A DNA stretch of 64,000 nucleotides from Candidatus Muiribacterium halophilum (GTDB lineage: Bacteria > Muiribacteriota > Muiribacteriia > Muiribacteriales > Muiribacteriaceae). The notes under the pieces were generated by a model. The model was not told the origin of the DNA, did no database searches, and saw nothing but the letters and a program-made list of their open reading frames with translations. The stretch is from positions 84,603-148,602 of the forward strand of contig JALOAD010000001.1 in the NCBI GenBank assembly GCA_023228995.1, in the 5' to 3' direction. Positions within the stretch are counted from its first letter, which is position 1. Each line of letters opens with the position of its first letter. This document shows, piece by piece, positions 2,447 through 19,045 of the stretch. A program made the translations under genes and the position numbers.

Positions 2447-5400
2447 TTAATTATTAAAATTTGGTTTGTATAAAGGTTCCCATTTAGTTGCATTTAAATC
2501 AAAATCATTTGAGTAAACATTTTCATTAAGTTGCCAACCTGATAAATTTTGATTAAATGCTATAGATTCACAAAACATAAAACTCATATCTGTAACATTT
2601 GAAGTCTTCCAATTTGATATATTTTGATTAAATGTTGTAGCATAAGAAAACATTCCATACATGTTTGTAACTTTTAAAGTATCCCAATTACCTATATCCT
2701 GATTAAATGCACTAGCATAAGAAAACATTAGCTTCATATCTGTAACATTTGAAGTATCCCAACTACTTATATCCTGATTAAATGCTGTTGCATTAAAAAA
2801 CATTCCATACATATTTGTAACTTTTGAAGTATCCCAATTACTTATATCCTGATTAAACACGCTAGCATAATCAAACATATAATACATATTACATTTTTCA
2901 CCAAAACCTTTATCCCACTTTAAAGAAACTCCACCATTATTAAATACACTTGCATTAGAAAACATAGAATTCATATTTATAACATTTGAAGTATCCCAAC
3001 TTCCTATATCCTGATTAAATGCTTTAGCATAACTAAACATACTAGTCATATCACAATTTTCACCAAAACCTTTATTCCAATTTAAAGAAACTCCATCATT
3101 ATTAAATACACTTGATTTATAAAACATTTTTTCAAAATTTTTAACTTTTGAAGTATCCCAACTTCCTATATCCTGATTAAATGCTATAGATTCACAAAAC
3201 ATAAAACTCATATCTGTAACATTTGAAGTATCCCAACTTCCTATATTCTGATTAAATGATCCTGTACTTTGAAACATTCGACTCATATTTATAACATTAG
3301 AAGTATCCCAATTACTTATATCCTGATTAAATACTGTAGCATAATAGAACATAAGACTCATATCTGTAACATTTGAAGTATTCCATACTGATAAATCCTG
3401 ATTAAATGCTTTAGCATGACCAAACATACCAGTCATATCACAATTTTCACCAAAACCTTTATTCCAATTTAAAGAAACTCCATCATTATTAAATACACTT
3501 GATTTATAAAACATTTTTTCAAAATTTTTAACTTTTGAAGTATCCCAACTTCCTATATCCTGATTAAATGCTATAGATTCACAAAACATAAAACTCATAT
3601 TTATAACATTAGAAGTATCCCAACTACTTATATCCTGATTAAATTTTTCAGCACAATAAAACATATAAGATAAATTCTCAACTGTTTTAGGAATGCTATT
3701 TGGTAATTTTTTAAAAAATATATAACTATCATCATTAAATGAACTCAAACAACCTTCAAGAGAATTTAAACCAATATCTCCAAATGAAATTATTTCAACA
3801 AGATAATTATGCCAAGGTGCATTTCCTGTTAGAGATTTTAATTCATCAGAAGTAAAGCCTAAATGATCAGCTTTGCCATATATTTTTACAGTATACTCAT
3901 TTATTGAAGTATAATTATGAGATGGTTGATCTATCTTTATATTCTCAATTTCACTACCATCACCCCAATCTATAAATACATTTAAATTACCTTTAAGAGG
4001 AATTACTAAAGCATCATTTGAATTTACTTTAAATTTTATTTCAAGAAGTTTTCCCCATTGAGCATATAATATTGTATCTTGAGTTATATTAAAAATAGTC
4101 CCTGGTAAATAAAATATTCCATTTCCATCACTTGATGTATTCCAAGCAAAAAATTCGTAATCTGTTTTTGTTAAATCTCCTTTCCCTGCTACTGAAACTT
4201 CTGGATTATAATCAGCGGAATTTACTAATGGTATTGTTCCACCTGTATTATCATTTCCATTATAAGTTAAATTATATTGTTTTATTTCAAAATCCGCTGT
4301 TATAATCACTTCTTTTGTTGGCATTGTGTAATTATAAGGATTTGAAGTTGATATAACTTTTTCACCAACTTTCCATTCTTTGAATTTATAATTTGTATTT
4401 GCTTCTGCTTTTATTTCTACTATCTGACCTTGAGAATAAAGTCCATTATTTGTTAATATTTTTCCATTATCGCCTGAATTAAAGGTTATTAAATATGTTT
4501 TATCCGATATAACAGTATTTTCAGTTATATTGTTAAAATATGTTGTTAATTCGGTCTTATCTGAAGAATTTAAAGTAGAAGTTACCTTTGTTATAATTGC
4601 ATTTTTATCTTTAATATCTACAAAATTATCAGTAATATAACATGCAATTCCAAGTTTTAATATTTTCTTAGTATTTTCAGTTTTGTTAATATTATCTATT
4701 GATGTATTAAGAGCATCTATTGTATTTCCAGTAATATTCTCAATATTTGTATTATTTACTGATACAACCGAACTTAATAAATTAATAATATCAAATTTAG
4801 GTTCATCAGTTGGAATTAACTCTTGAAGTTTTTCAAATTTTTCAACACTTAATAATGATTTAACATTATTTGCAAGAGGTTTTAAGATTTTTGTTATATT
4901 TGCAGTATTAATATCATCTTTATTTATTGCAGATTTTTCAAGCAATTCAATTAATCCATTAACTGCTATAGCTGATTGTAACCTTTTAATATGTTCAATA
5001 TTTAATTTTTCATTATCTTCAGGAAGAAATACCATTGGATTTGATAATATATCAGAAGAAGTAATTTTTATTTCAGCAGAAAAATCAAAAGCTTCATTCA
5101 GGATTATTGCAACTTCTTCTTTTGATAAATTATATTTAGAAACAAGAGTTGTTAATGGCGATAATACCACTCTTCCACTTATATCATTTTGTTCTGCAAT
5201 ACATTCAAGCAAAGGACCTGAATAATTTATACCATTATGTTTACCCTTAAATTCAGCATGCATTTTTATTTTTTGACCAATAATAATTTCGGTTGAAAAG
5301 TTAAATTCACCCTTATCATCAGAAATATCAGATATTATTTCATTAGTATCAATTATTCCATTATTATTAGAATCTATAAAAAACTTTGCACCAATAATAT

Positions 5401-5536
5401 ATGGATCAACCGCAACACCTGTTTTTGATAAAACCTTAGAATTATTAGTAACTCCACCACTACTTCCACCACATCCAATTAAAACCACAATTAACAATAA
5501 AGAAAATAATAATATTAGTTTGTTTTTATACAACAT
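2447..5536 (-). CDS. Large surface lipoprotein (lipobox LIGCGGSSGG). The N-terminal half has Listeria-Bacteroides-type repeat domains; the C-terminal half has more than 15 DUF285-type repeats (FNQDIxxWDTSNVTxMxxMF).
   Basis: Signal peptide + Cys lipobox. Reiterated ~26-aa FNQDI(S/G)xWDTSxVxxMxxMF units match the DUF285 (Mycoplasma/Listeria lipoprotein) repeat signature. YNLTYNGNDNTGG...FFAWNT and ITFNSGDNG...FKEWKVG segments resemble the Flg_new/InlB B-repeat. Confidence 0.8.
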   Translation of the reverse strand: MLYKNKLILLFSLLLIVVLIGCGGSSGGVTNNSKVLSKTGVAVDPYIIGAKFFIDSNNNGIIDTNEIISDISDDKGEFNFSTEIIIGQKIKMHAEFKGKHNGINYSGPLLECIAEQNDISGRVVLSPLTTLVSKYNLSKEEVAIILNEAFDFSAEIKITSSDILSNPMVFLPEDNEKLNIEHIKRLQSAIAVNGLIELLEKSAINKDDINTANITKILKPLANNVKSLLSVEKFEKLQELIPTDEPKFDIINLLSSVVSVNNTNIENITGNTIDALNTSIDNINKTENTKKILKLGIACYITDNFVDIKDKNAIITKVTSTLNSSDKTELTTYFNNITENTVISDKTYLITFNSGDNGKILTNNGLYSQGQIVEIKAEANTNYKFKEWKVGEKVISTSNPYNYTMPTKEVIITADFEIKQYNLTYNGNDNTGGTIPLVNSADYNPEVSVAGKGDLTKTDYEFFAWNTSSDGNGIFYLPGTIFNITQDTILYAQWGKLLEIKFKVNSNDALVIPLKGNLNVFIDWGDGSEIENIKIDQPSHNYTSINEYTVKIYGKADHLGFTSDELKSLTGNAPWHNYLVEIISFGDIGLNSLEGCLSSFNDDSYIFFKKLPNSIPKTVENLSYMFYCAEKFNQDISSWDTSNVINMSFMFCESIAFNQDIGSWDTSKVKNFEKMFYKSSVFNNDGVSLNWNKGFGENCDMTGMFGHAKAFNQDLSVWNTSNVTDMSLMFYYATVFNQDISNWDTSNVINMSRMFQSTGSFNQNIGSWDTSNVTDMSFMFCESIAFNQDIGSWDTSKVKNFEKMFYKSSVFNNDGVSLNWNKGFGENCDMTSMFSYAKAFNQDIGSWDTSNVINMNSMFSNASVFNNGGVSLKWDKGFGEKCNMYYMFDYASVFNQDISNWDTSKVTNMYGMFFNATAFNQDISSWDTSNVTDMKLMFSYASAFNQDIGNWDTLKVTNMYGMFSYATTFNQNISNWKTSNVTDMSFMFCESIAFNQNLSGWQLNENVYSNDFDLNATKWEPLYKPNFNN

Positions 5537-5709: not shown

Positions 5710-7068
5710 ATGTTATTATTTGCTATATATAATAATAGCAAACGAGGAAATCTGATGGAACAAGCTTTCTGGGTAATACTAACTTTATCCTCTGTAATAT
5801 CAATTCTAATATGTATTATATTTATATATTTTTACAATAAATTCAAGAAAACTTTCTTCTTAGAACTTGCTTTAGCATCATTTTTGTATGCTATACATAT
5901 ACCGGTAATAAATTTAATAACATCAATGACAAAACAAAGTTTAATAGGAATATTATCAGATAAAATCCTATTAATTTCAGCTTCTTATCTCTTCGTACAC
6001 GCAATATCAAAATTAACTGAAATAAAATTTTACAAAATAATACATTCTATATTCATTTTTGTTTTTTTCCTTGTTATAACACTTGAAATTTATTGCAATG
6101 AAATTTTCATTAAAGGTTCAGCTGGATTAATAATTTTTGCAACAGCATTTATTTATTGCGGAATACTTTTTTTTAGGAATAAAACTTTTATACGACATAA
6201 TCGAATTATACTCGGAAGTCTTTTTGTTATATGGGGATTAATACCATTTTTATATATACCTTATTATCTTAATGATAAACTTCCATTAATTCCTGTAATG
6301 CTTATTTTTACTGTTAAATTATTAATAAATTTTTTTATAATAATATTATTTTTTGAAGAAAGTAGAAAAGAAGTACTTATTAAAAATTTTGAAATTACAT
6401 CTTTGGAAAATACTAAAAAACAAATTCTATCAACAATAACACATGATATAAAATCTCCTCTTACATCATTAAGCGGTTATTGTGAACTTATAGTATCTGA
6501 AAAACTTGGAACTCTTACAAAAGAACAAAAAGAAAAAATATTAATAATGAAAAAAAATATCGATAAAATCAATTCAATTACTGATAGAATATCTTTTTAC
6601 TCAAAACTCACACGTTTTGAAAAAATCAATCAAGTTGAAAAAATATCAATAAAAAAACTTCTTTTTGATATTTCTGTTTATATTAGAAAAATAAACCCAG
6701 GAATATCAATCAATTTTGAATTTCCTGAAGATGAACTTATAATTCAAGTTGATTTCACCAAATTATCTGAACTTTTTTATATTTTAACCGATATAATGAC
6801 TAATTTTGAAAATAATCCATCAATTAATATATTATTTATAAGTTATCAAGATAAAGACAAAAACTATATTTTTGAAAATAAATTTTATTACAAAGAAAAA
6901 ATACAAAAAAATGAAATACTAAACATAACAGATGAGCAAAAGACATTTGGTGCTAATTTAATAAACAAAATATTTACTGATATTAATGCAAATATGAATT
7001 TAGATATAAAAGAAAATGAAAATTGTCTTATTATAAAAATAAAATTATTAGGATTTCCCCTTGATTGA
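5710..7068 (+). CDS. Polytopic membrane sensor histidine-kinase-like protein with a degenerate ATP-binding domain
   Basis: About 6-7 N-terminal hydrophobic helices, then a HisKA-like H-box (ILSTITHDIKSPLTSLSGYCELI). The C-terminal region has an N-box-like LTDIMTNFENN but lacks clear G1/G2 (DxGxG/GxGxG) motifs. Confidence 0.55.
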   Translation: MLLFAIYNNSKRGNLMEQAFWVILTLSSVISILICIIFIYFYNKFKKTFFLELALASFLYAIHIPVINLITSMTKQSLIGILSDKILLISASYLFVHAISKLTEIKFYKIIHSIFIFVFFLVITLEIYCNEIFIKGSAGLIIFATAFIYCGILFFRNKTFIRHNRIILGSLFVIWGLIPFLYIPYYLNDKLPLIPVMLIFTVKLLINFFIIILFFEESRKEVLIKNFEITSLENTKKQILSTITHDIKSPLTSLSGYCELIVSEKLGTLTKEQKEKILIMKKNIDKINSITDRISFYSKLTRFEKINQVEKISIKKLLFDISVYIRKINPGISINFEFPEDELIIQVDFTKLSELFYILTDIMTNFENNPSINILFISYQDKDKNYIFENKFYYKEKIQKNEILNITDEQKTFGANLINKIFTDINANMNLDIKENENCLIIKIKLLGFPLD

Positions 7069-8025
7069 ATCGATTATCGAATAATATTCATCATATTCAT
7101 CAACCCATATAACTTTTACACCAAGCTCGTTCAAAACACTTTCCTTAAGATAGTCATTAAGATATAAAAGACTTTTAATATCTTGATTATGAATATTTTT
7201 ATCATAAGAATGTTTTTGAACAGTATAATTAACAACACCTTGAAAATTAAGCTGAACAATTTCAAGAATTCTTCTTAAATTAGCATCATTAAAAGAAGTT
7301 CCAACAAAAAAAGAACCTGAATCCTTAAAACTAGTAAGCTGAACAATATTAGACCACGAAAACATTTCGGAAGAAGATTGTCTATTATAATCATCATCTG
7401 AAAAAACAATATTCATATTATCAAAATCTTTAATATGCTGAGGAAGATAACCATGAACATGATAAATTGGAAGAGAACTCTCTAAAAATTCAACATTACT
7501 ATCAAAAATACTCTTATGTTCAACATTATATTTATTAAGTTTTCTTTCAAGAAGATCATCAAAATTATAAGATATAACAGATTTTATATAATTAAACCTT
7601 GTAGGAACACAAAGCCGACCAATAGAACTAATAAGAGGGTTTTTCATAAAAACTTCTTTTGAATACAAAGCTCTTTCAATAGCTTCAAAAAAAGCTTCTG
7701 GACTACCAAATCCACTTTTTATATATCTAGCCTGTAAAATAAGCTCATCAGTTTTAAGTTTAAGGCTTTCCCAATCAGGCAAATCCATAACAACTTTATT
7801 AAGCACAAGGTCATTATAAAGAGCTTTAACAAGATCAGGCCACAAAGGAAGACCCGCAGCTTTTGAAACACCAGAACCCAGAACTAAAGTAAGTCTATTT
7901 GAATTATAAATTTTACGAATATCATAAATAAACTTATCTCGGTTTTTGTCCCAAGTTGTAAAACACTCTGTTAAGTCAAATGCACTAATTTTATTCATTC
8001 TATTATTATACCATTTATCAAGCAT
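7048..8025 (-). CDS. Stand-alone SIR2-like domain protein (SIR2_2 / defence-type sirtuin-like, predicted NAD+-consuming effector)
   Basis: 325 aa. Rossmann motif LVLGSGVSKAAGLPLWPDL (GxGxS..GlPxW), SYNFDDLLE (the TTNYDxLLE motif of SIR2_2) and YHVHGYL (HG motif). Same motif set as ThsA/DSR-type SIR2 domains. Last gene of the 12272->7048 operon. Confidence 0.7.
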   Translation of the reverse strand: MLDKWYNNRMNKISAFDLTECFTTWDKNRDKFIYDIRKIYNSNRLTLVLGSGVSKAAGLPLWPDLVKALYNDLVLNKVVMDLPDWESLKLKTDELILQARYIKSGFGSPEAFFEAIERALYSKEVFMKNPLISSIGRLCVPTRFNYIKSVISYNFDDLLERKLNKYNVEHKSIFDSNVEFLESSLPIYHVHGYLPQHIKDFDNMNIVFSDDDYNRQSSSEMFSWSNIVQLTSFKDSGSFFVGTSFNDANLRRILEIVQLNFQGVVNYTVQKHSYDKNIHNQDIKSLLYLNDYLKESVLNELGVKVIWVDEYDEYYSIIDSIKGKS

Positions 8026-8116
8026 AAAAACAATAGAATCCCGTGAATTGAGGTCAAACCCGCAGAGGCTGTTGATTTATTCAGAATCATGCAGGGATGA
8101 CAAAAATAAAGATAGT

Positions 8117-8524
8117 TTAAAGATTTAACTCAATATTATTCAATCCGTTTTCATAAAATTCATCCATATATTTTTTAAATATATTTTTGAATTCATCTAC
8201 CTGATCAGAATTCATCTTGTCTGAAAAATAAAGATTGTGTTTGTTTATTATATCTCTTTCAGATAATCTTCGTCCAAGTTGTTCCCAAAATATATTATCA
8301 ACAAACTTTTCTTTGAAATCTTTTATTTCCAATAGTGTATTGAGTTCATCTTGTCTTGATCTAAAGCCTTTTTCTTCAAGAGCTTTAATTACTTTTAATT
8401 CCAGTTCTTTTAAATTATCATCTTTCTCAAACACTGTAAGACATGGCTCATTAAATTTTTCATTACCAAGATGTATTAATTTTAAAAGTAGTTTATATTC
8501 TTTTTCTGACAAGTTTAGTGCCAT
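8117..8524 (-). CDS. Small predicted all-helical hypothetical protein (135 aa)
   Basis: Open frame overlapping the upstream gene by 32 nt (translational coupling). Lys/Glu-rich helical composition, no recognised motif. Confidence 0.5.
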   Translation of the reverse strand: MALNLSEKEYKLLLKLIHLGNEKFNEPCLTVFEKDDNLKELELKVIKALEEKGFRSRQDELNTLLEIKDFKEKFVDNIFWEQLGRRLSERDIINKHNLYFSDKMNSDQVDEFKNIFKKYMDEFYENGLNNIELNL

Positions 8525-8873
8525 GTTTTATCTTCCTCTCTTTTCTTGCAAAAAATACATCACCCGGAACCCAACCTCTTTCTCCAATAGCATTTTTACA
8601 ATAATACCACGAAGATGATTTTTCAAGAATTGCTAATTTTTCTCCAGTTTTAATATCAAGTTCTCCTGAATAATAATCTTTTTTTATTTTAACATGAAAA
8701 TCTTCGCCAAATTCAATATAATCAATAGGTACCCATGCTCTTTTACCGTTTTCTTTAACACACCATCTAAATCCTGGCCAAGGAGATTTCTTTTTTGTAT
8801 ATATACAAATCTCATCTTGCTCGTAAAAAATATTTTCATCTGTTGACTTTCTATAGTCTTTTAATGCTATCAT
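8493..8873 (-). CDS. Small cytoplasmic protein with two tandem SH3-like domains (126 aa)
   Basis: Two consecutive segments fit the SH3 pattern (ALxDY...E.xF..GD.I.....WW....GxxGxVPxxYV): ALKDYRKSTDENIFYEQDEICIY...WPGFRWCVKENGKRAWVPIDYIE and KIKKDYYSGELDIKTGEKLAILEKSSSWYYCKNAIGERGWVPGDVF. It starts 4 nt after the STAND gene stop. Confidence 0.55.
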   Translation of the reverse strand: MIALKDYRKSTDENIFYEQDEICIYTKKKSPWPGFRWCVKENGKRAWVPIDYIEFGEDFHVKIKKDYYSGELDIKTGEKLAILEKSSSWYYCKNAIGERGWVPGDVFFARKERKIKHGTKLVRKRI

Positions 8874-8877
8874 TCTT

Positions 8878-11439
8878 CTACTCCATTATAATACAATAAT
8901 CATTTTTTAATTCAAACATATATGTTTTAGTCTTTCTGGAATTTACAAGTGTATCCATAAATATCTTCCTAAGACTGTGTACACTTACTCTTAGAAGATT
9001 CAAGTCTGACAAATCTTCAAGTTTTCTTCCCCATACTTTTTCATAAATTTCATCTGAATTTAATTCTTTTCCTATATTAACACAAAAAAGTTTTAAAAGT
9101 TTTAATAATATGGTCTTTTTAAAAATATCATGTTTTTTTCCAAATACTAAAATTTCTTGATTAATAAAATCAATATAAATGTTATATTTCTCTTTTTTAC
9201 TGCTATATTCTTTCATTTCATAATATTCAATTTTTCTTTTAACACCGTTTACATTAATTTCAAAAAAACTACCACTTTGGTTTTTTTCAACAATAAATCT
9301 CAATCTATTTATTTCTCTAACTATAATAACAGAATTATAAAATGATAATCCTTGAATTATATTATTAATATCCTTGTTTTCTATCATATTTACTATTGAT
9401 TCAGCAAATACTTTCATATATTCCCAATCAGAAATATTTAAACTTTCTATTTCATTTTTTAAATTAATTTTATCTTTATCAATAATATATTTTAACACGA
9501 TATAATCTAAAAAAAACAAGTTATAAAATATGTAATAATTATTTTCTTTAAAAAATTTTAAGCTTTGCTCTATTTTAATATAAGCTTTGTAATAATCGTT
9601 TTTTAAAATATATATATGACCTAGTAATGCACTGTAAAAACCGTTTGTATTTTCCAATTCAAGAAATTTATCACCTGTTATTCCAAAAATTGATTTTTTT
9701 TCAAAAATTTTAATATATAAAATAACATATACAATTCTCTTATTAATAGTCTTTGCTTTATCATAATCTGCATAATATAAAAATTGTCTATAATACTCAT
9801 AAGCTTTCATTTTTGATCTTTTTGATAATTCAACAAGCGATAAATTAAAATATATATCTGATAATTTTTGTTTGTCATAATATGGATATTTTTCAATTAT
9901 ATCATTTAATACAAAATGACATTTATCATGTTCCATGAGATATAAATAACATTCACCCATTAATGCTTTTAAATTAATAAGTAATTTAAGCGAAACATTT
10001 TCACTTGATTTATCAATAAAATCTTTAAGATTTATTATACAGCTTTGAAGTAAACATAATTCTCTTTCTTTAAAAATTGTAATATATTGTATAATTATTT
10101 TTTCAGGTTTCGTTAAATTATCTGTTTTTAATTGTTCTTTAAATGAATTATTCAAATAAAAGGAATTTACTTTCAATAATAAATCTCTTTTTTTAGAATC
10201 ACATAATCTTTCTACATTTTCAATAAAAATATTTTTCTTTTCTTTTGTTAAAGCTTGTATCCACATATTATAATAATAAATTTCATCGTTAAATTCGCAA
10301 AGATATTCAATGTTTTCTTCAAGAAAAATATTCAAGTCAATATTATTTACAAAATCTATTGGAAAATTTTCAAAAGCATTTTTTATATATAAACAACATT
10401 TAAAATAATCTTCCGATGATTTAGAAAAAGTTATATATTCAAAAAAATTATCGACTGAAAATATATATTTTTCTTCGTAAAATTCAAGTATTTTTTTAGA
10501 TGTTTTTGTTATAATTTTTTTATCTGAATTATTAAGAATTGATATTTTCATCATATCTGAACATTTAATATTATTATCAATATCTTGTTCAATTACAAAA
10601 TGATTTTTTAAAAAATTTATATCATCTTCTTTAATATTAAAAAAATCAATAAAGTTTTTTTTATTTACTGCTATATTAAAAAAAGATAATAAAAACGTTA
10701 TTTCCTTCCTTTTTTGTGTAAGACCTTCATAATCAAGATAATTAATTTCTTTATTTATTGCATTAAGAAATGCATTTCCTTCAAATATATCATTTATTGA
10801 AAAATCATAACTTGTAAAAAGTGATATAAAAACTTTAATATATAAAGGAATTCCACCTGTTTTTTTATAAATTTTATTAAGCCAAAAAGAAGATATTTTT
10901 TTGTTATTTTGTCCTATAGAAATTTTTTCAACAAGTTTTACAAACTCAATATAATCAAGTTTTTTAACATTATAATGATAAATATCACTTTTTACACTTA
11001 AAGGAATTTCGATAAATTGTGAAGATAAAACAATAAGTTTTGAATTGTAAAAAATATCAAAAGCTTCTCTTATAAACTCTGAATGATCAATAAGACAAAA
11101 ATTGAAATTATCAAGTAAAATATAATTATTGTTTTTTTCTAAATATTCCAGAAATTCTCGAATATTGGCATTTTGATTGATTTTTAAATTATATTTAGTA
11201 TTTAGTAAATTGATTAATTCTTTAAAATCCATATTTCTTGTTACTTTAGCATATAATATTTTATTGTTTTTTCTATCAATATTAATATTTTCTAGAGCTT
11301 TTATAATAAAAGAAGTTTTACCAACTCCACGCATTCCATATATAAAAAAAATTGAAAAATCGTTGAATTTGTTTTTTAATCTTTCAATTTCATCTTTTCT
11401 ACCAGTAAAATTAACTAATTTTGAAAATTCTCTTTTCAT
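8878..11439 (-). CDS. STAND-type P-loop NTPase (AAA_16-like, helical/TPR-like middle) with a C-terminal OmpR/PhoB-type winged-helix DNA-binding domain
   Basis: 853 aa. FTGRKDEIERL + Walker A GMRGVGKTSF + Walker B-like YILLDNFNF in the first 120 aa. A long helical repeat region follows. The C-terminus (DIFKKTILLKLLKLF..GKELNSDEIYEKVWG....LLRVSVHSLRKIF) aligns with the Trans_reg_C motif (EF.LL.LL....G.V.sRe.L...VWG.......rtVdVHIrRLRKKL). Confidence 0.75.
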   Translation of the reverse strand: MKREFSKLVNFTGRKDEIERLKNKFNDFSIFFIYGMRGVGKTSFIIKALENINIDRKNNKILYAKVTRNMDFKELINLLNTKYNLKINQNANIREFLEYLEKNNNYILLDNFNFCLIDHSEFIREAFDIFYNSKLIVLSSQFIEIPLSVKSDIYHYNVKKLDYIEFVKLVEKISIGQNNKKISSFWLNKIYKKTGGIPLYIKVFISLFTSYDFSINDIFEGNAFLNAINKEINYLDYEGLTQKRKEITFLLSFFNIAVNKKNFIDFFNIKEDDINFLKNHFVIEQDIDNNIKCSDMMKISILNNSDKKIITKTSKKILEFYEEKYIFSVDNFFEYITFSKSSEDYFKCCLYIKNAFENFPIDFVNNIDLNIFLEENIEYLCEFNDEIYYYNMWIQALTKEKKNIFIENVERLCDSKKRDLLLKVNSFYLNNSFKEQLKTDNLTKPEKIIIQYITIFKERELCLLQSCIINLKDFIDKSSENVSLKLLINLKALMGECYLYLMEHDKCHFVLNDIIEKYPYYDKQKLSDIYFNLSLVELSKRSKMKAYEYYRQFLYYADYDKAKTINKRIVYVILYIKIFEKKSIFGITGDKFLELENTNGFYSALLGHIYILKNDYYKAYIKIEQSLKFFKENNYYIFYNLFFLDYIVLKYIIDKDKINLKNEIESLNISDWEYMKVFAESIVNMIENKDINNIIQGLSFYNSVIIVREINRLRFIVEKNQSGSFFEINVNGVKRKIEYYEMKEYSSKKEKYNIYIDFINQEILVFGKKHDIFKKTILLKLLKLFCVNIGKELNSDEIYEKVWGRKLEDLSDLNLLRVSVHSLRKIFMDTLVNSRKTKTYMFELKNDYCIIME

Positions 11440-12227
11440 TTTTTTTCCTTAAAACATTGTGATAAGATTTTAAATGCTTTACTTGGACAAGCAATAATAT
11501 CTTTTTTAAGCGGTTTTCCATTTAAAATATCATAATCAAAAAATAAATCTTCTCCATCTATATATTTCACACAAAGACCTGAAGCATAACAAATACTAAC
11601 AGCGCCTAAAATATCCCATATTTTAACTTTACCACAATGAGCAGCAAGTACACTTGATTTTGCAGCAAAAACAAGATGAAGAGCAGTCGAACCAAAAGAT
11701 CTTAATTTACCTGGAAATTTTATTGAAATATTTCTCATACTTTTGGAATCAATACATATAGAATCTGTTTTACAAAGATCTTCACGGTTAAAGACACAGG
11801 AATTAATTTCAGAATAATTAAGAAATGCACCAAAATCAGGTCCACCATAATAAAGTTCATCAAATATTGGAGAATATATAAGTCCAAAATAAGGTTTTTT
11901 ATCTTTCAGAAGTCCAATACTTATGCACCAGCCAGGAAGTTTCATTGCATAAGAATGAGTGCCATCGATTGGATCGACAGCCCATATAAATTCAGATTCT
12001 AAATTCAAATTATTATTATTACCTTCTTCACCTATAACAATTCCTTCAAATTCCTCTTCTAATTTACTTTTTATAAATATTTCAATTTCCTTATCAGCAA
12101 TTGTTACATGAGAACCATCTGGTTTTAAATCGTATCCAGTAAATGGATTTTTATAATATCTTAAAGCAATTTCACCTGCTTGTTTTATTATTTCTACAGT
12201 TTTTGTAATTAATTTTTCATTTTCCAT
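11436..12227 (-). CDS. Inositol-monophosphatase (FIG/IMPase) family phosphatase (SuhB/CysQ-like)
   Basis: Motifs IGEEG, WAVDPIDGTHSY (WxxDPxDGT) and KIWDILGAVSI (WDxxA). The ORF track begins at a TTG at 12272, but that TTGACT looks like a -35 box. The ATG at 12227 (MENEKL) has a GAGGA SD. Stop overlaps the STAND start (ATGA). Confidence 0.8.
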   Translation of the reverse strand: MENEKLITKTVEIIKQAGEIALRYYKNPFTGYDLKPDGSHVTIADKEIEIFIKSKLEEEFEGIVIGEEGNNNNLNLESEFIWAVDPIDGTHSYAMKLPGWCISIGLLKDKKPYFGLIYSPIFDELYYGGPDFGAFLNYSEINSCVFNREDLCKTDSICIDSKSMRNISIKFPGKLRSFGSTALHLVFAAKSSVLAAHCGKVKIWDILGAVSICYASGLCVKYIDGEDLFFDYDILNGKPLKKDIIACPSKAFKILSQCFKEKK

Positions 12228-12239
12228 AATATCCTCAAG

Positions 12240-12278
12240 ATAAATACTACAATTCCAATAGTATAAAGTCAAAAAAAA
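12240..12278 (-). promoter_or_regulatory. Putative sigma70-type promoter of the IMPase-STAND-SH3-SIR2 operon (TTGACT-17bp-TAGTAT, then GAGGA SD)
   Basis: Minus-strand read: tttttttttGACTttatactattggaattgTAGTATttatcttGAGGAtattATG. It sits immediately after the subtilase terminator. Confidence 0.35.
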
Positions 12279-12302
12279 AGTGCAGATTTCTCTGCACTTT
12301 TT
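12271..12302. terminator. Bidirectional rho-independent terminator (A-run, AGTGCAGA-tttc-TCTGCACT, T-run)
   Basis: Perfect 8-bp stem flanked by A9 and T5. On the minus strand it ends the subtilase gene. Confidence 0.65.
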
Positions 12303-12333: not shown

Positions 12334-13746
12334 TTAAAAAGCAAATTCAATTGCAAGTCTTTTTTCAAAATCAGTCATTGGAGCTCTTAAATGTAATGAT
12401 CTTGTGATGTTATCAGCAATTTCATCCATTGAAGCAGAAATTGCATCATTGATATTAGCAAGTGATTTTGAATATCTTGCTGCCTGAACTGCTCTGTTTA
12501 TATTTATTACTCCGCCTGAAATAACTTTATCTGAAAGCCAGTCTTTTTTGTCAACTGTTTTCATTATTATATCTTTAACTTCAACAGCTGTGAGTTCAGG
12601 GTTTTCATTAAGCATAAGTGTAGCAACTCTCGCAGCATAAGGAGCAGCCTGAGAAGTACCAGACATATAACCCATTTTACCATTAGGATAAGTTGATAAT
12701 ATATTAACACCAGGAACAGCTACATCAACTTTATTTATAGCAAAACATGAAAAAACAGCAAGGTTTTTATCATTATCAGTTGCTGCAACAACAAGTTTAT
12801 TGTCAATTTTTACATCATTTGGAGATGATACAATGTTTTCGAGATTTTCAGAAGAATTCCCAGCTGCTATTACAATTAAAGCATTAGGAACTTTTGAGAA
12901 AAGCTCTTTATCTTTTGGAAGTAGAGCAAGTTCAACAAAAAGATTGACCATTTCTTGAACATCTTCTTCAGTAGGATTTGCAAAACCCCATTGTTCAACC
13001 ATAGTTTGTTTAAAAGAAGCCATAAGCTGTTGGTTTTCAGTACCAAATGAACAGTTAATAACTCTAGGTGCTAATTCTCCAACATAATCTCTTTCTTTTG
13101 CAACACCTTGAGCCTGCTGCATACCCATATAAGCAAAATAATTTTTAATTTCTTCCATTGTAGGAGCTTTTTCTTCTCCACTTCTTGTAGTAAGAGATGC
13201 TCTTAAACCTCTTGCAGCATCTTCAATAAGCTGAGCTACTGGTGGTTCTCCAACTGGAATATGAGAAATTGCTTTCATATTAATTACATCGTTATTTCTA
13301 GCGATAATACCGCCAACATGTGAACCATGAGCCCATCCACCTGTAAAATTAACCCATGCATTGAATTCTTTATTTTGATAATTAGTTAAAAGAAAATTGA
13401 ATTCATCCGCACTTAAAGAATCTTTACCGTAAACTGTGAGTTTACCAATAAGTTCCATAAATCTAAGAACATCATCATATCTTGGTGGCTGATATTCTGA
13501 ATGAACAAGAGTTCCAGTGTTTTCTACAAAATTCCAACCATAAATATCATCAATATAACCGTTACCATCTTCATCTACACCTTCAATTCCATTAAATTCA
13601 GCTAAATTAATATCAGCAACAGGTCCAAGTTTTTCATGATTAAAATCAGTACCTGAATCCATTACTAATACTGGAATTTTTGAGTCAGCAAATGAATTTA
13701 AACTAAGAATTGCTACCATAGTTATTGCTATCATGCTTTTTTTCAT
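12334..13746 (-). CDS. Secreted subtilisin-like serine protease (peptidase S8)
   Basis: Signal peptide. Catalytic triad contexts VLVMDSGTD (Asp), GGWAHGSHVGGIIA (His), GTSQAAPYAARVATLM (Ser). Confidence 0.8.
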   Translation of the reverse strand: MKKSMIAITMVAILSLNSFADSKIPVLVMDSGTDFNHEKLGPVADINLAEFNGIEGVDEDGNGYIDDIYGWNFVENTGTLVHSEYQPPRYDDVLRFMELIGKLTVYGKDSLSADEFNFLLTNYQNKEFNAWVNFTGGWAHGSHVGGIIARNNDVINMKAISHIPVGEPPVAQLIEDAARGLRASLTTRSGEEKAPTMEEIKNYFAYMGMQQAQGVAKERDYVGELAPRVINCSFGTENQQLMASFKQTMVEQWGFANPTEEDVQEMVNLFVELALLPKDKELFSKVPNALIVIAAGNSSENLENIVSSPNDVKIDNKLVVAATDNDKNLAVFSCFAINKVDVAVPGVNILSTYPNGKMGYMSGTSQAAPYAARVATLMLNENPELTAVEVKDIIMKTVDKKDWLSDKVISGGVININRAVQAARYSKSLANINDAISASMDEIADNITRSLHLRAPMTDFEKRLAIEFAF

Positions 13747-16054: not shown

Positions 16055-19045
16055 TTAATAACTAACTCTTACAACAGTAAATTCTCCAACTCCACCTTCA
16101 TAATTCTCAGTTACAAATATTATTTTGCGATTAACTTCATCTCTTATAGTATTTGTTACAGAATCAGCCGAATTAGGATCTAAAGATTTGGAAAATTCAG
16201 TGCCGAGCTTTATTATAGGAAATCCAGCTTGATCTGGAATTAAAAACACATAGTTTTTTCCATCTGCTTGCATAATAGAATACATCTGATTATCAGTAAG
16301 ACTTGTAATATCATTTATTATATTATTTTCTAAATCAAGTAAATTAACAGAATCGCCATAATTTTCTTCGAATATTAAAAATCCATTATTGTTTTCATCT
16401 TCAAAATATTTAAGCTGATTAAACTGATTACATGTAAGATTGTTAAAACTATTTTCAATAACTTTTGAAGGTGTTTGCCATACACCATTATCAAGCTCAG
16501 AAAACCATATATGATCAAGTTCATTCTGATCTCTTGCAGAAAAATATATTTTTTCAACATTAGATAAATTTTTATAATAAAATGCAAAACCCGATTCTCT
16601 AATATCTATATCAGAAAGATTCTCAGTCGGAGTTGAATATACTTCCACTGTATCACTAAATGAATTTCCATCAAATGTATTATATATAAGCGAGTGTTTA
16701 TTACTATCCCATTCTGCTTTTACAAAAATTTGATGAAAAACACCATCTTTATAAATAGCACTTGGCACTGGAGAATAAGTATAATTAAAATCAGTATAAT
16801 TTGTAAAATTATTACTATTATAATTAAAGAATACAGTTCTATAACCCAAAGAAGGATTCGTTCCATTAGGAGATTCAAATACTAAGTAAGCTCCCAAAGA
16901 ATTATAGAAAATATCATGAAAGCAATTAATATCTTCACCAGGAGAAACTGTATAAATAATCTCAGTACCATCTGCCAAACAAGCTACAATGTCACATGAA
17001 CTATTCATATAAAATATTATAACATCTCCCGAATTATCAAGAGCAATTTTTATTTGTGAAGAAACATCAGCCAAAGTTATTTCTTCAAAAGTAATATTAT
17101 TTATATTTATTGAATAAGATTCACTAATATCATTTTCAAATCTATTATAAGCTTTAAATGAAAGATCGCATGAATAATCAAACTCTAATGGATAAACATT
17201 TCTTGTATCATAAAAATATGAATAATGACCTGGTTTAAGATTAATTAATCCTTCAGTTAACGGTGCATATTGTGCAGGTTCATAAACGCTTATATCAACT
17301 GAAACTGTATCATATAAAACATCAAAGCTAAATTGTATAATCCTAGAATCATTTAATTGAGTAAAATTCGCTATTTGTGAAGTTCTATTATCTATGCTGA
17401 AAGTTTGAGATTCAACAAATGCTAAAGGGTTTTCAGAAGGTGTAATTTTTATTTTAATTTCAGATATAGTTTCTGCTACTTCATTAAAACTTTCCCACAT
17501 TACTGTATATGTTCCAGGAGAAAGATTTGTAATATTATCAGAAGAATTCAAAGTTATAGCCTGATATTCTTGATTATTAATTTTAGCTTCTAATAAAACT
17601 GAAGTTCTTTTATATAAAACAGTAAAAGCTATAGGAATATCAAATCTATTATGATTAACATTTAATTGCGTTATAATCGGAATTATTTCTCCACCAGTGT
17701 TTACAACTACTCCAGTCAAATTTTCAAGTATTGTATAATCTGTAATATTAGGATTATTTTGAAGATCAATCCTTTTTAAATTAGGCATATCAAGCAACAC
17801 AGATAAATCTGATATATTAGTATTTGATAAAGATAAATTTTCAAGATTTGAAAGTCCTGCTAGAGATGTTATATCTGATATTCCATTTCCAGATAGATTT
17901 AGCGAATTTATAGTTGAAAGATTTGCTAAAGATGTTATATCAGATATTTTATTTCCAGACAAATTTAAAGCTTTAACTGATGTTAAAGCTGAAAGTGCTG
18001 AAATATCTGAAATATCATTATTTGAAAGATCAATGTTTTCAAGATTTTTACAAAATTCAAGCCCATTAAGACTTATTAAAGAAGTTTGGTTAGCTTTATT
18101 TGGTGCTGTTTTGGATGGACCAGGTAATGGTCCAGTTCCAGAATATGCTAGTGATATAAACTCAGCATGTGAAAGAAGTTCATCTGTAAGATAATCTTCA
18201 GATAGTACAGAAACTCCGTTAATTGTATTTAAAGTTTCTATAACTTTATTTCGTAAATTAGGATCTGTAAAATAATAAGTTTTTGTGTTGATTTCACTTA
18301 ATAAAACCCTATCATTTGTATCATTTTGATAAACATCGATTTTATAATCTTTGCCATTATCAAGATCAGTTAATACATAAATAATATTTTCAATAGTTCC
18401 GGAATAAGTAAAATTATAAGTATCAAACAAAATATTATTAACTTCAATATCATAATTGGTTGAAAATGAAGGTGATTGCCATGCAATACCAATACTATTT
18501 GAACTTTTTTCAAAAACTTCAGGAGTTTTATTTAAAGGAATTTCAATTTCCCATGAATTATATGAAATACTAACATAAGTAGTGTTATTATCGATTATTT
18601 TTATTTGTTCATTATAGTAAAATGGTATTGCATCATTTGAATTAATTGGTATAAAAAAGAAAAAATAATCTCCAGCAGCTATTTCCCCAATATTAACTCC
18701 ATTCTCATGTGGACTACCCGGTTTTACATCATATGTTTTAAAAAAAACATCATCTCTTTTACTTAAAATATCTGCAATTATAAGATTACTATGTTCTGAA
18801 GTAACTAAATCACTTACTGCATTATATACACCTAATGGAGCAAGAATAACTTCTATAGTATTAATTCCAAGATGTCTTGGTGGAGCTTTACGGTTTGTAC
18901 TATTTACAGGCCATTCAACATTAACATTAAGAGAATTTCCTGTGAATTTAGGACTTATATCAACACTGCGATTGCTACCGCATCCAGCAATAAAAAGCAT
19001 AAAAACAACCAAAATGCTTAAAGAAAAAATATATTTTTTACACAT
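16055..19045 (-). CDS. Large surface lipoprotein with leucine-rich repeats (internalin-like) and Ig/FN3-like domains
   Basis: Lipobox FIAGCGS. 22-aa LRR units (LSNNDISDISALSALTSVKALNLSGNKISDITSLANLSTINSLNLSGNGISDITSLAGLSNLENLSLSNTNISDLS). Confidence 0.8.
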   Translation of the reverse strand: MCKKYIFSLSILVVFMLFIAGCGSNRSVDISPKFTGNSLNVNVEWPVNSTNRKAPPRHLGINTIEVILAPLGVYNAVSDLVTSEHSNLIIADILSKRDDVFFKTYDVKPGSPHENGVNIGEIAAGDYFFFFIPINSNDAIPFYYNEQIKIIDNNTTYVSISYNSWEIEIPLNKTPEVFEKSSNSIGIAWQSPSFSTNYDIEVNNILFDTYNFTYSGTIENIIYVLTDLDNGKDYKIDVYQNDTNDRVLLSEINTKTYYFTDPNLRNKVIETLNTINGVSVLSEDYLTDELLSHAEFISLAYSGTGPLPGPSKTAPNKANQTSLISLNGLEFCKNLENIDLSNNDISDISALSALTSVKALNLSGNKISDITSLANLSTINSLNLSGNGISDITSLAGLSNLENLSLSNTNISDLSVLLDMPNLKRIDLQNNPNITDYTILENLTGVVVNTGGEIIPIITQLNVNHNRFDIPIAFTVLYKRTSVLLEAKINNQEYQAITLNSSDNITNLSPGTYTVMWESFNEVAETISEIKIKITPSENPLAFVESQTFSIDNRTSQIANFTQLNDSRIIQFSFDVLYDTVSVDISVYEPAQYAPLTEGLINLKPGHYSYFYDTRNVYPLEFDYSCDLSFKAYNRFENDISESYSININNITFEEITLADVSSQIKIALDNSGDVIIFYMNSSCDIVACLADGTEIIYTVSPGEDINCFHDIFYNSLGAYLVFESPNGTNPSLGYRTVFFNYNSNNFTNYTDFNYTYSPVPSAIYKDGVFHQIFVKAEWDSNKHSLIYNTFDGNSFSDTVEVYSTPTENLSDIDIRESGFAFYYKNLSNVEKIYFSARDQNELDHIWFSELDNGVWQTPSKVIENSFNNLTCNQFNQLKYFEDENNNGFLIFEENYGDSVNLLDLENNIINDITSLTDNQMYSIMQADGKNYVFLIPDQAGFPIIKLGTEFSKSLDPNSADSVTNTIRDEVNRKIIFVTENYEGGVGEFTVVRVSY

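What the first reader, a model, noticed from the sequence alone, without database searches (positions are those of the whole stretch)
8493..8873. Small cytoplasmic tandem-SH3 protein embedded between the STAND and SIR2 genes
Both halves of the 126-aa protein fit the SH3 beta-barrel sequence pattern (ALxDY ... WW/WY ... G.RGWVP.DYI). Cytoplasmic tandem SH3-like adaptors are unusual in bacterial operons. Its translational coupling to the NTPase gene suggests a stoichiometric partner, for example an adaptor linking sensor and effector.
Basis: seen in the sequence. Interest (0 to 1): 0.5.

Follow-up and report, generated by a model that had tools for sequence, protein, structure and literature searches.

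The report
Tandem-SH3 protein beside STAND and SIR2
The 126-residue gene is real and encodes two eukaryote-type SH3 domains; it belongs to a widespread, uncharacterised family of cytoplasmic bacterial proteins, and only in Muiribacterium is it wired into a STAND-ATPase operon next to a SIR2 gene, so a sensor-effector adaptor role is possible but unproven.

Summary

The real block is InoP-STAND-SH3-p135, followed after a 91-nt gap by SIR2.

The tandem-SH3 unit is not rare. It defines a large bacterial family of about 115-125 aa, also found fused to GNAT, DinB, NUDIX and PIN domains. About 116 other members were checked, and none showed a SIR2 or STAND neighbour. A SIR2 orthologue (62% identical) occurs at the same chromosomal spot without STAND, SH3 or p135. 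The STAND protein has no N-terminal effector domain and ends in a probable OmpR-type DNA-binding domain, a MalT-like layout.

Best reading: the SH3 protein is a recruited peptide-binding accessory subunit of the STAND regulator, together with p135. A direct STAND-to-SIR2 bridging role is a minority possibility. Interest is moderate.

The parts
12275..12302 (-). Terminator-like hairpin ending the upstream S8-peptidase gene; marks the 5' boundary of the transcription unit
   Evidence: 12-bp stem followed by a T-run
12244..12272 (-). Promoter-like site TTGACT-17-TAGTAT upstream of the inositol-monophosphatase-family gene
   Evidence: Consensus match only; not evidence of function.
11436..12227 (-). 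Inositol-monophosphatase-family gene (263 aa from the ATG with a GAGGA Shine-Dalgarno). Its stop overlaps the STAND start (ATGA). Probably housekeeping.
   Evidence: Pfam Inositol_P E 1.6e-35. Junction. Also present in L134 without the STAND block.
8878..11439 (-). STAND NTPase, 853 aa: an NB-ARC-type NTPase starting at about residue 10, a helical middle region, and a C-terminal OmpR/PhoB-type winged helix at about residues 755-830. No N-terminal effector or adaptor domain.
   Evidence: Pfam NB-ARC 1.5e-7, nSTAND6 1.6e-7, Trans_reg_C 4.4e-5 (23.9 bits, below the 26.2 cut-off). NCBIfam RpaB 2e-4. Weak PDB hits to SaeR and CadC DNA-binding domains. Walker A GMRGVGKTS and a GLPL-like GGIPLY read from the sequence.
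8709..8873 (-). SH3 domain 1 (residues 1-55) of the 126-aa protein. Ligand-face residues are Y7, F35 (Trp in most family members), P49 and Y52.
8556..8702 (-). SH3 domain 2 (residues 58-106). Ligand-face residues are Y67, W89 and P103. The canonical last Tyr is Val106.
8493..8555 (-). Basic disordered C-terminal tail (residues 107-126, pI 12) plus the stop codon. The last 32 nt overlap the start of the 135-aa gene.
   Evidence: pLDDT below 50 for residues 112-125. pI. Overlap.
8117..8524 (-). 135-aa acidic (pI 5.1), predicted all-helical ORFan ('p135'), with its own GAGAGGAAG Shine-Dalgarno inside the SH3 gene. Found only with the SH3 gene, in three lineages.
   Evidence: dN/dS 0.04-0.08. No Pfam, PADLOC, NCBIfam or PHROG match. 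Low-confidence AF2 model, pLDDT 47.
8026..8116 (-). 91-nt spacer before SIR2. It contains the promoter-like site TTGACC-16-TATTGT (8057-8030), which ends 4 nt before the SIR2 ATG. No Shine-Dalgarno is present.
   Evidence: No Rfam match and no significant fold.
7048..8025 (-). SIR2-family protein, 325 aa, SIR2 domain only. The GSGVS Rossmann motif, the YNFDD Asn motif and the YHVHG His motif are intact. Presumed NAD+-consuming effector.
   Evidence: Pfam SIR2_2 1e-12. PADLOC ThsA-type 1.1e-14 and LmuA 4.5e-7. Motifs conserved as far as a Klebsiella plasmid homologue.

Best explanation
The gene encodes a cytoplasmic protein made of two closely packed classical (eukaryote-type) SH3 domains followed by a short basic disordered tail. 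It belongs to a large, taxonomically broad family of stand-alone tandem-SH3 proteins that has not been functionally characterised. Conserved ligand-face residues imply that family members bind a peptide or protein segment.

In the Muiribacterium lineage one copy was captured into a tightly coupled block, STAND-SH3-p135. There it most likely acts, together with the acidic helical p135, as an accessory subunit of the STAND ATPase made in fixed proportion. This would be a binding module that holds or modulates the STAND protein, or that presents a target to it.

The STAND protein has the MalT-like order: NTPase, helical sensor, C-terminal OmpR-type winged helix. Its output is therefore probably DNA binding. 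The neighbouring SIR2 gene has its own promoter-like site and is a plausible regulated target.

Shown: the fold, family membership, purifying selection, the conserved gene junctions, and the lack of SIR2/STAND linkage elsewhere in the family.

Inferred: peptide binding, physical association with STAND and p135, any transcriptional control of SIR2, and any role in phage defence.
For: Fold and family:
- 748 cluster representatives match at E<=1e-3. Most of the top 150 are 110-125-aa proteins aligned end to end in a single stretch.
- 88 of 88 sampled members hit SH3_2.
- Canonical ligand-face residues are conserved across the family: domain 1 Trp 71/88 and Pro 83/88; domain 2 Tyr 86/88, Trp 84/88 and Pro 86/88.
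- Only 1 of 88 has a hydrophobic N-terminus, so the family is cytoplasmic.

Coupling to STAND and p135:
- 4-nt STAND/SH3 spacer with an internal Shine-Dalgarno, and a 32-nt SH3/p135 overlap. Both are conserved in L005 and L133.
- All genes are under purifying selection.
- p135 is found only in these loci.
- The basic SH3 tail (pI 12) and the acidic p135 (pI 5.1) are complementary in charge.

STAND architecture:
- The NTPase starts at about residue 10, leaving no room for an N-terminal effector or adaptor domain.
- The C-terminal region gives wHTH hits.

SIR2 is separable:
- 91-nt spacer with a promoter-like site and no Shine-Dalgarno.
- L134 carries the SIR2 orthologue without the STAND-SH3-p135 block.
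Against: - There is no direct evidence of any protein-protein contact. No multimer prediction could be run.
- The STAND protein has only five prolines and no PxxP motif. p135 has one proline. A canonical SH3 ligand is therefore not evident in the operon.
- The winged-helix assignment is below Pfam's gathering score (23.9 against 26.2 bits).
- Family members elsewhere sit in unrelated contexts, including integron-cassette-like arrays. That pattern fits an autonomous function needing no neighbour.
- Only three closely related lineages carry the arrangement, so conservation of gene order could partly reflect shared ancestry and not selection.
- No STAND homologues outside this lineage could be examined.
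Confidence: 0.5

Rival explanations
1. Bridging adaptor. After the STAND sensor oligomerises, the tandem-SH3 protein, alone or with p135, physically recruits or activates the separately encoded SIR2 NADase. The result would be a split, four-part equivalent of the single-chain SIR2-STAND (Avs5-type) defence proteins.
For: - The STAND protein has no effector domain, and SIR2 (325 aa) has no sensor or adaptor domain. If they act together, something must connect them.
- The nearest SIR2 relatives elsewhere carry an extra N-terminal domain of about 170 aa that this SIR2 lacks.
- The two small genes lie exactly between the STAND and SIR2 genes, and the order is conserved in L005.
- SH3 domains are classic adaptor modules. 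The family profile's best PDB match is the p47phox tandem SH3.
Against: - SIR2 is set apart by 91 nt with its own promoter-like site.
- L134 keeps SIR2 at the same locus without STAND, SH3 or p135.
- None of about 116 other family contexts examined showed SIR2 or STAND, and none of 80 SIR2-relative loci has a tandem-SH3 gene.
- No proline-rich motif is present in SIR2 outside its Rossmann motif.
- The STAND C-terminal winged helix offers a different output.
- PADLOC recognises no system here beyond the SIR2 domain.
Confidence: 0.2
2. Hitch-hiker with an autonomous function. The tandem-SH3 protein does here what the family does everywhere, namely binds some common cellular peptide or ligand. 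It is merely co-transcribed with the STAND gene and has no functional tie to STAND or SIR2.
For: - Family members occur next to dnaB, priA, gcpE, transaldolase and hydrolase genes, and inside a 2-oxoacid dehydrogenase operon.
- They occur as arrays of 2-3 paralogues.
- They occur in cassette-like arrays on Vibrio and Moritella replicons.
- Fusion partners are unrelated enzymes: GNAT, DinB, NUDIX and PIN.
Against: - The gene is translationally coupled on both sides, and its 3' end is shared with an ORFan found nowhere else. This arrangement is kept in three lineages.
- The Muiribacterium proteins have lineage-specific features: a basic tail, Phe in place of the ligand-face Trp in domain 1, and no N-terminal leader.
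Confidence: 0.2
3. Restraining partner of the NADase. The tandem-SH3 protein binds and silences SIR2 until a trigger releases it, in the manner of an antitoxin. [quoted passage not shown]
For: - PMC11984713 predicts two SH3-like domains in Nip, an inhibitor of the NAD+-degrading SpbK defence system.
- An intact NADase-type SIR2 needs to be kept inactive.
- The SH3 gene is upstream of SIR2 in the same orientation.
Against: - L134 has the SIR2 orthologue without the SH3 gene.
- The roughly 500-aa SIR2 relatives have no SH3 neighbour.
- The SH3 gene is coupled to STAND and p135, not to SIR2.
- Nip's domains are only SH3-like and were not compared here.
Confidence: 0.07

Closest known systems
Classical eukaryotic SH3 domains (Nck1/2, Csk, Crk/CED-2, myosin-I) and the p47phox tandem SH3
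   Same: - Same fold at 1.1-1.3 A over about 51 residues.
- Matches to Pfam SH3_1 and SH3_2 are above threshold.
- The ligand-face Tyr, Trp and Pro residues are retained.
- There are two SH3 domains in tandem. The family profile's best PDB sequence match is p47phox (E 3e-12).
   Different: - Bacterial, and only 126 aa with no other domain.
- The linker between the domains is about 4 residues.
- The RT loop of domain 2 is 3 residues shorter than in Nck1.
- In the window protein, domain 1 has Phe in place of the ligand-face Trp and domain 2 lacks the final Tyr.
- No structural hit spans both domains.
- Peptide binding has not been tested.
Uncharacterised bacterial 'SH3 domain-containing protein' family of about 115-125 aa (no family-specific name found)
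   Same: - End-to-end alignment at 25-40% identity.
- Scores 121.9 bits against the family HMM.
- Same two-domain layout and the same conserved positions.
   Different: - The Muiribacterium proteins add a 20-residue basic tail and lack the short N-terminal leader.
- They are the only members seen next to STAND and SIR2.
- Other members are stand-alone in unrelated contexts, or fused to GNAT, DinB, NUDIX or PIN domains.
Avs5 / SIR2-STAND antiviral proteins (AVAST type 5)
   Same: A SIR2 NADase-type domain and a STAND NTPase are encoded at one locus.
   Different: - Here they are separate genes with two small genes between them.
- The STAND protein has a C-terminal winged helix and no N-terminal SIR2.
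- PADLOC models do not match the STAND protein.
- There is no evidence of a defence island.
MalT-type STAND transcription activators, which are regulated by small partner proteins (from my own knowledge of MalT, MalY, Aes and MalK)
   Same: - Same order of parts: N-terminal STAND NTPase, helical middle region, C-terminal DNA-binding domain.
- The co-encoded small proteins could be modulators.
   Different: - The DNA-binding domain is OmpR/PhoB-type and only a sub-threshold match, whereas MalT's is LuxR-type.
- The NTPase is NB-ARC/nSTAND6-like.
- No sequence relation to MalT was detected.
- Regulation by the small proteins is inference only.
Effector-associated-domain (EAD) and Death-like adaptor systems of bacterial STAND/NTPase conflict systems (PMC7159879, PMC8195603)
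   Same: Same concept: a separately encoded effector, which can be SIR2, is coupled to an NTPase through small adaptor modules.
   Different: - Those systems use the same adaptor domain on both partners. No domain is shared among STAND, SH3, p135 and SIR2.
- An SH3 adaptor linking a bacterial STAND NTPase to a separately encoded effector is not described in those papers.

Membership tests
Classical SH3 domain (Pfam SH3_1 / SH3_2, clan SH3) | Sequence match above the curated threshold | tested here: met
   SH3_2 scores 43.4 bits against 21.8 (two stretches). SH3_1 scores 37.8 against 22.9.
Classical SH3 domain (Pfam SH3_1 / SH3_2, clan SH3) | Five-stranded beta-barrel of about 55 residues with an RT loop, n-Src loop, distal hairpin and 3-10 helix | tested here: met
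Classical SH3 domain (Pfam SH3_1 / SH3_2, clan SH3) | Conserved ligand-face residues: the Tyr of ALYDY, the first Trp of WW, and the Pro and Tyr of the P-x-x-Y motif | tested here: inconclusive
   Domain 1 has Y7, F35 (Trp replaced by Phe), P49 and Y52. Domain 2 has Y67, W89, P103 and V106 (Tyr lost). Across the family Trp and Pro are kept in 71-86 of 88 members.
Classical SH3 domain (Pfam SH3_1 / SH3_2, clan SH3) | Binds proline-rich or related peptide motifs | not testable with these tools
   No PxxP motif in the STAND protein (5 prolines) or in p135 (1 proline). No binding assay or multimer model was available.
Bacterial stand-alone tandem-SH3 family (unnamed) | Single end-to-end alignment over both domains with the conserved W-x-W-C....G..GWVP blocks | tested here: met
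   Family HMM E 2.5e-37.
Bacterial stand-alone tandem-SH3 family (unnamed) | Cytoplasmic: no signal peptide or membrane anchor | tested here: met
   The N-terminus MIALKDYRKSTDEN is hydrophilic. Only 1 of 88 members has a hydrophobic N-terminal window.
Avs5 / SIR2-STAND (AVAST type 5) | SIR2 effector fused N-terminally to the STAND NTPase in one polypeptide | tested here: not met
   The genes are separate. The STAND NTPase starts at about residue 10. PADLOC gives no hit for the STAND protein.
Thoeris (ThsA plus ThsB) | ThsA consists of SIR2 plus a SLOG domain, with a TIR-domain ThsB encoded alongside | tested here: not met
   The SIR2 protein is 325 aa with only a SIR2_2 domain. The match to the ThsA model covers its SIR2 part. 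No TIR domain was found in the neighbouring proteins scanned.
EAD / Death-like adaptor-coupled NTPase conflict systems | The same adaptor domain is present on both the NTPase and the effector protein | tested here: not met
   All-against-all BLASTP of the operon proteins finds no shared segment (best E 0.08, 19 residues).
STAND transcription regulators of MalT-like layout | N-terminal STAND NTPase with Walker A and B motifs | tested here: met
   NB-ARC 1.5e-7 and nSTAND6 1.6e-7. GMRGVGKTS, ILLDN and GGIPLY read from the sequence.
STAND transcription regulators of MalT-like layout | C-terminal DNA-binding domain | tested here: inconclusive
   Trans_reg_C scores 23.9 bits, below the 26.2 cut-off. 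RpaB model 2e-4. PDB SaeR and CadC domains at E about 0.5. The pattern LL..L....G..ls.eel...vWG...LRk is visible in all three orthologues.
STAND transcription regulators of MalT-like layout | Activates transcription of target promoters | not testable with these tools
   Only a promoter-like site before SIR2 was found. No conserved repeat was found in the spacer.

The most novel reading that the evidence does not exclude
A split, NLR-like bacterial immune module. A STAND sensor would signal to a stand-alone SIR2 NADase through a eukaryote-type tandem-SH3 adaptor plus a helical partner. This would be the first SH3-mediated adaptor step in prokaryotic immunity. It would come from a large intracellular family of classical SH3 proteins, which would also challenge the view that bacterial classical SH3 domains are extracellular (PMC5906684).
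Probability: 0.12. Interest if true: 0.75.

Novelty: new variant of a known kind. Interest (0 to 1): 0.4.

Why it matters
First, if the SH3 protein really partners the STAND ATPase, it would be an example of a classical SH3 module used inside a bacterial signalling ATPase system. In that case the connection would be made by separate small subunits and not by fused domains.

Second, independently of this locus, the work exposes a large and apparently unstudied family of cytoplasmic tandem classical SH3 proteins across many bacterial phyla. Their closest structural and sequence matches are eukaryotic signalling SH3 domains, and their ligand-face residues are conserved. This bears on where intracellular SH3 signalling modules came from. 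It also gives a compact system in which to look for their ligand.

The practical value is limited for now. The STAND/SIR2 association is confined to one candidate-phylum genus, and no function has been shown.

Tried and rejected
- The search for related loci with family alignments A2 and A4 failed because no stretch was conserved enough. I replaced it with a degenerate DNA pattern scan.
- The search for related loci with the SIR2 protein alone on genome contigs found nothing.
- The AFDB Foldseek library was unavailable.
- The p135 structure prediction was unusable (pLDDT 47), so no fold search was run on it.
- I tested whether p135 is a split-off version of the N-terminal domain of the roughly 500-aa SIR2 relatives. 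hhalign found no similarity, so this was rejected.
- I looked for a shared adaptor domain among the operon proteins and found none.
- I looked for PxxP ligands in the STAND protein and p135 and found none. The only conserved motif loosely resembling PxxDY is YPY[YN]DK at STAND residues 518-523. It is not convincing.
- I looked for an RNA element or repeat in the p135-SIR2 spacer. There was no Rfam hit, the fold z-score was -1.2, and the GC-rich segment has no second copy.
- PADLOC, PHROGs and NCBIfam give nothing for SH3, p135 or STAND beyond generic domains.
- tblastn of the STAND protein against plasmids gave only P-loop-level hits to Nostoc NB-ARC proteins.
- The family is essentially absent from phage collections, so a phage-derived anti-defence origin was set aside.
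- The two frameshifts in the L005 STAND gene are probably assembly errors. Other genes on that long-read contig are also fragmented, and dN/dS of the C-terminal part is 0.09.
Full report
**Source and locus**

The protein is identical to an NCBI entry named 'SH3 domain-containing protein [Candidatus Muirbacterium halophilum]'. That organism belongs to the genus Muiribacterium in the candidate phylum Muiribacteriota. The window has 26% GC.

On the minus strand the local gene order is as follows:
- an S8 peptidase gene (12334-13746);
- a terminator-like hairpin (12302-12275);
- a promoter-like site (12272-12244);
- an inositol-monophosphatase-family gene (11436-12227), whose stop overlaps the next start (ATGA);
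- a STAND NTPase gene (8878-11439, 853 aa);
- a 4-nt spacer;
- the SH3 gene (8493-8873, 126 aa);
- a 135-aa gene (8117-8524), which overlaps the SH3 gene by 32 nt;
- a 91-nt spacer;
- a SIR2 gene (7048-8025, 325 aa);
- a convergent histidine-kinase gene (5710-7068, + strand).

**Check of the observation**

The ORF, its length and its strand are as stated.
- Pfam matches SH3_2 in two stretches (E 2.8e-11) and SH3_1 at residues 69-103 (E 1.5e-9). Both are above the gathering scores.
- phmmer against PDB sequences returns only eukaryotic SH3 domains. The best are Nck1/Nck2 for domain 2 and Acanthamoeba myosin-I for domain 1.
- An AlphaFold2 model built on a 120-sequence family alignment has mean pLDDT 87.6 and pTM 0.75. 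Residues 1-110 are confident. The strand pattern shows two five-stranded barrels, and residues 112-125 are disordered.
- The two halves share only weak local similarity with each other.

The STAND/SH3 junction reads ...ATA ATG GAG TAG AAGA ATG. It has a GGAG Shine-Dalgarno inside the STAND 3' end, which is consistent with translational coupling.

It has its own GAGAGGAAG Shine-Dalgarno inside the SH3 gene.

**Orthologues and selection**

Only two close relatives of the SH3 protein exist in the databases searched.
- P0002 (79% identical) lies on L005. That locus has the same order: S8, InoP, STAND, SH3, 136-aa gene, SIR2.
- A 125-aa protein (65% identical) lies on the 1-kb contig L133, flanked by a STAND C-terminus and a 136-aa gene.

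The 3-4-nt spacer after the STAND stop and the 32-nt SH3/p135 overlap are identical in layout in all three loci.

Pairwise dN/dS values:

| Gene | dN/dS |
|---|---|
| SH3 | 0.11-0.24 |
| p135 | 0.04-0.08 |
| SIR2 | 0.08 |
| STAND C-terminal part | 0.09 |
| InoP | 0.21 |

All five are therefore real genes under constraint. The two frameshifts in the L005 STAND gene are probably assembly errors, because other genes on that long-read contig are also fragmented.

**The tandem-SH3 unit is a widespread family**

An exhaustive HMMER search found 748 cluster representatives at E<=1e-3 and 86 at E<=1e-10. Most of the top 150 are 110-125-aa proteins that align with residues 3-105 in a single stretch at 25-40% identity.

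- An 88-member alignment shows nearly invariant W37, W47, P49, Y67, E71, L72, G77, W89, G100, W101 and P103.
- All 88 members hit SH3_2 and 87 hit SH3_1.
- The positions that form the peptide-binding face in canonical SH3 domains are strongly conserved. In domain 1, Trp is kept in 71/88 members and Pro in 83/88. In domain 2, Tyr is kept in 86/88, Trp in 84/88 and Pro in 86/88.
- Only one member has a hydrophobic N-terminus, so the family is cytoplasmic.
- The same unit is fused to GNAT acetyltransferases (5 of 10 sampled), DinB (2), NUDIX and PIN domains.
- Plasmid records annotate members only as 'SH3 domain-containing protein' or 'ligand-binding protein SH3'.
- A family profile's best PDB match is the tandem SH3 of p47phox (E 3e-12). 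No solved bacterial member appeared among the 60 best matches listed.

Literature searches found no description of this family. One comparative study describes bacterial classical SH3 domains as secreted (PMC5906684).

**Linkage test**

I tested this from both sides.

From the SH3 side:
- 108 of those loci contain an ORF matching the family HMM.
- No ORF in any of the 120 loci resembles the window's SIR2, STAND, p135 or InoP (phmmer E<=1e-3).
- Pfam on 45 close same-strand neighbours gave DnaB (4), alpha/beta hydrolases (3), GcpE (2), transaldolase (2), PriA (2), PolA, DNA-alkylation repair and others. Neither SIR2 nor a STAND family appeared among the 25 families listed out of 50.
- Eight annotated metagenome contexts likewise lack both. 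They include a copy inserted between the E1-beta and E2 genes of a 2-oxoacid dehydrogenase, and arrays of two or three paralogues.
- On a Vibrio replicon the gene sits in what looks like an integron cassette array.

From the SIR2 side:
- A profile-guided metagenome scan returned 80 loci. None has a tandem-SH3, STAND or p135 gene.
- Most of these relatives (29-38% identical) are proteins of about 480-510 aa with an extra N-terminal domain of about 170 aa. That domain is unrelated to p135.
- The closest relative, L134 (62% identical, 330 aa), lies beside the same S8 and InoP neighbours. It is paired with a SAM-methyltransferase-like gene and has no STAND, SH3 or p135.

The SIR2/STAND association is thus specific to one small lineage, and SIR2 is separable from the STAND-SH3-p135 block.

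**The neighbouring proteins**

The STAND protein:
- It matches NB-ARC and nSTAND6 at its N-terminus.
- It has a Walker A motif (GMRGVGKTS) and a GLPL-like motif (GGIPLY).
- The NTPase begins at about residue 10, so there is no N-terminal effector or adaptor domain.
- The C-terminal 100 residues or so match the OmpR/PhoB DNA-binding domain just below threshold. Trans_reg_C scores 23.9 bits against a cut-off of 26.2. The RpaB model gives 2e-4. The PDB hits are the SaeR and CadC DNA-binding domains.
- The order NTPase, helical region, C-terminal DNA-binding domain is that of MalT-type regulators (my own knowledge), not that of Avs sensors.
- Its GC content is 17-21%, against 26-34% in the flanking genes.

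The SIR2 protein:
- It has intact GSGVS, YNFDD and YHVHG motifs, conserved as far as a Klebsiella plasmid homologue.
- It matches PADLOC ThsA-type and LmuA models in the SIR2 part only.
- Its start codon has no Shine-Dalgarno. It is preceded by the promoter-like site TTGACC-16-TATTGT, which ends 4 nt upstream. L005 has a TATAAT 9 nt upstream of the start.

p135:
- It is acidic (pI 5.1) and predicted to be helical.
- It has no family match.

The surrounding genes are MetRS, a DUF285 surface protein, histidine kinases, an LRR protein and a radical-SAM enzyme. This is not a defence island.

**Interpretation**

What is shown:
- a genuine, constrained tandem classical SH3 protein;
- membership of a broad cytoplasmic family with a conserved ligand face;
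- a conserved, tightly coupled STAND-SH3-p135 block;
- a SIR2 gene that is adjacent but separable.

What is inferred: the SH3 protein binds a peptide segment and works as a fixed-ratio accessory subunit of the STAND ATPase together with p135. The STAND output may be transcriptional, possibly acting on SIR2.

I give this reading about 0.5. The rivals are:
- an autonomous function with mere co-transcription (about 0.2);

The main weaknesses are these:
- no contact evidence exists;
- no proline-rich ligand is present in the operon proteins;
- the winged-helix match is below threshold;
- the arrangement is known from only three related lineages.

**Novelty and score**

The SH3 fold and the SIR2 and STAND components are all known. 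The stand-alone tandem-SH3 family is annotated only generically and appears not to have been studied. Its insertion into a STAND operon next to SIR2 was not found in the literature searched, nor in PADLOC.

I rate this a new variant of a known kind with moderate interest (0.4). The ORF is well supported. The proposed mechanism is open, and the association is phylogenetically narrow.

Noticed in passing
window 8117-8524 (-): A 135-aa acidic, predicted all-helical ORFan overlaps the SH3 gene by 32 nt. It is strongly constrained (dN/dS 0.04-0.08) and found only in the three orthologous loci. It has no family or structural assignment.
   Followed up: partly
window 8878-11439 (-): The STAND protein has a MalT-like layout: an NB-ARC NTPase at the extreme N-terminus and a probable OmpR/PhoB-type winged helix at the C-terminus. 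This suggests an ATP-dependent transcription regulator and not an Avs-type sensor. The gene's GC content is 17-21% against 26-34% in the flanks.
   Followed up: partly
window 8026-8116 (-) and L005 6291-6331: The SIR2 gene lacks a Shine-Dalgarno and has a -10-like hexamer 4 nt (window) or 9 nt (L005) before the ATG. It may therefore be a separately regulated, possibly leaderless transcript. In the window, the spacer carries a unique GC-rich 36-nt segment (8036-8071) with no Rfam match and no significant fold.
   Followed up: partly
L134 2459-4792: A 62%-identical SIR2 orthologue sits beside the same S8-peptidase and inositol-phosphatase neighbours. It is convergent with the phosphatase gene and overlaps a 209-aa SAM-methyltransferase-like gene. 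There is no STAND, SH3 or p135. The spot looks like a variable locus.
   Followed up: partly
L135-L213 (metagenome SIR2 relatives); L012 (Klebsiella plasmid NZ_CP129856.1): The nearest SIR2 relatives outside Muiribacterium are proteins of about 480-510 aa with an N-terminal domain of about 170 aa. By eye that domain has a PD-(D/E)xK-like motif (D...IEIK). The Klebsiella copy lies among toxin-antitoxin, antirestriction, WYL and helicase genes.
   Followed up: no
L022, L026, L031, L089 (Acidimicrobiia/Actinomycetota); L056, L079 (Verrucomicrobia): In these lineages the tandem-SH3 gene overlaps the end of dnaB by 4 nt, or lies next to priA. Other members are next to polA and DNA-alkylation repair genes. 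This may hint at a replication or repair connection for part of the family.
   Followed up: no
L010 6001-6372: A tandem-SH3 gene is inserted between the E1-beta and E2 genes of a 2-oxoacid dehydrogenase operon. It starts 1 nt after the E1-beta gene ends and overlaps the E2 gene by 4 nt.
   Followed up: no
L009 5636-6354; L218/L219 5001-6129; L220 5001-5778: Arrays of two or three paralogous tandem-SH3 genes in a row, divergent from a class-I aminoacyl-tRNA synthetase gene.
   Followed up: no
L216 (Vibrio alginolyticus NZ_CP099958.1) and L217 (Moritella pMR24b): The tandem-SH3 gene occurs among short, evenly spaced single genes (toxin-antitoxin, nucleotidyltransferase, cytidine deaminase, GNAT). 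The layout resembles an integron cassette array and would imply an autonomous function.
   Followed up: no
proteins P0028, P0036, P0050, P0058, P0066, P0067, P0069, P0072, P0074: The tandem-SH3 unit is fused at either the N- or the C-terminus to GNAT acetyltransferase, DinB, NUDIX and PIN domains. It behaves as a mobile targeting or binding module for cytoplasmic enzymes.
   Followed up: partly
window 2447-5536 (-) and 16055-19045 (-): Two large repeat proteins flank the region. One is a 1029-aa DUF285 / Listeria-Bacteroides-repeat protein and the other is a 996-aa LRR protein.
   Followed up: no
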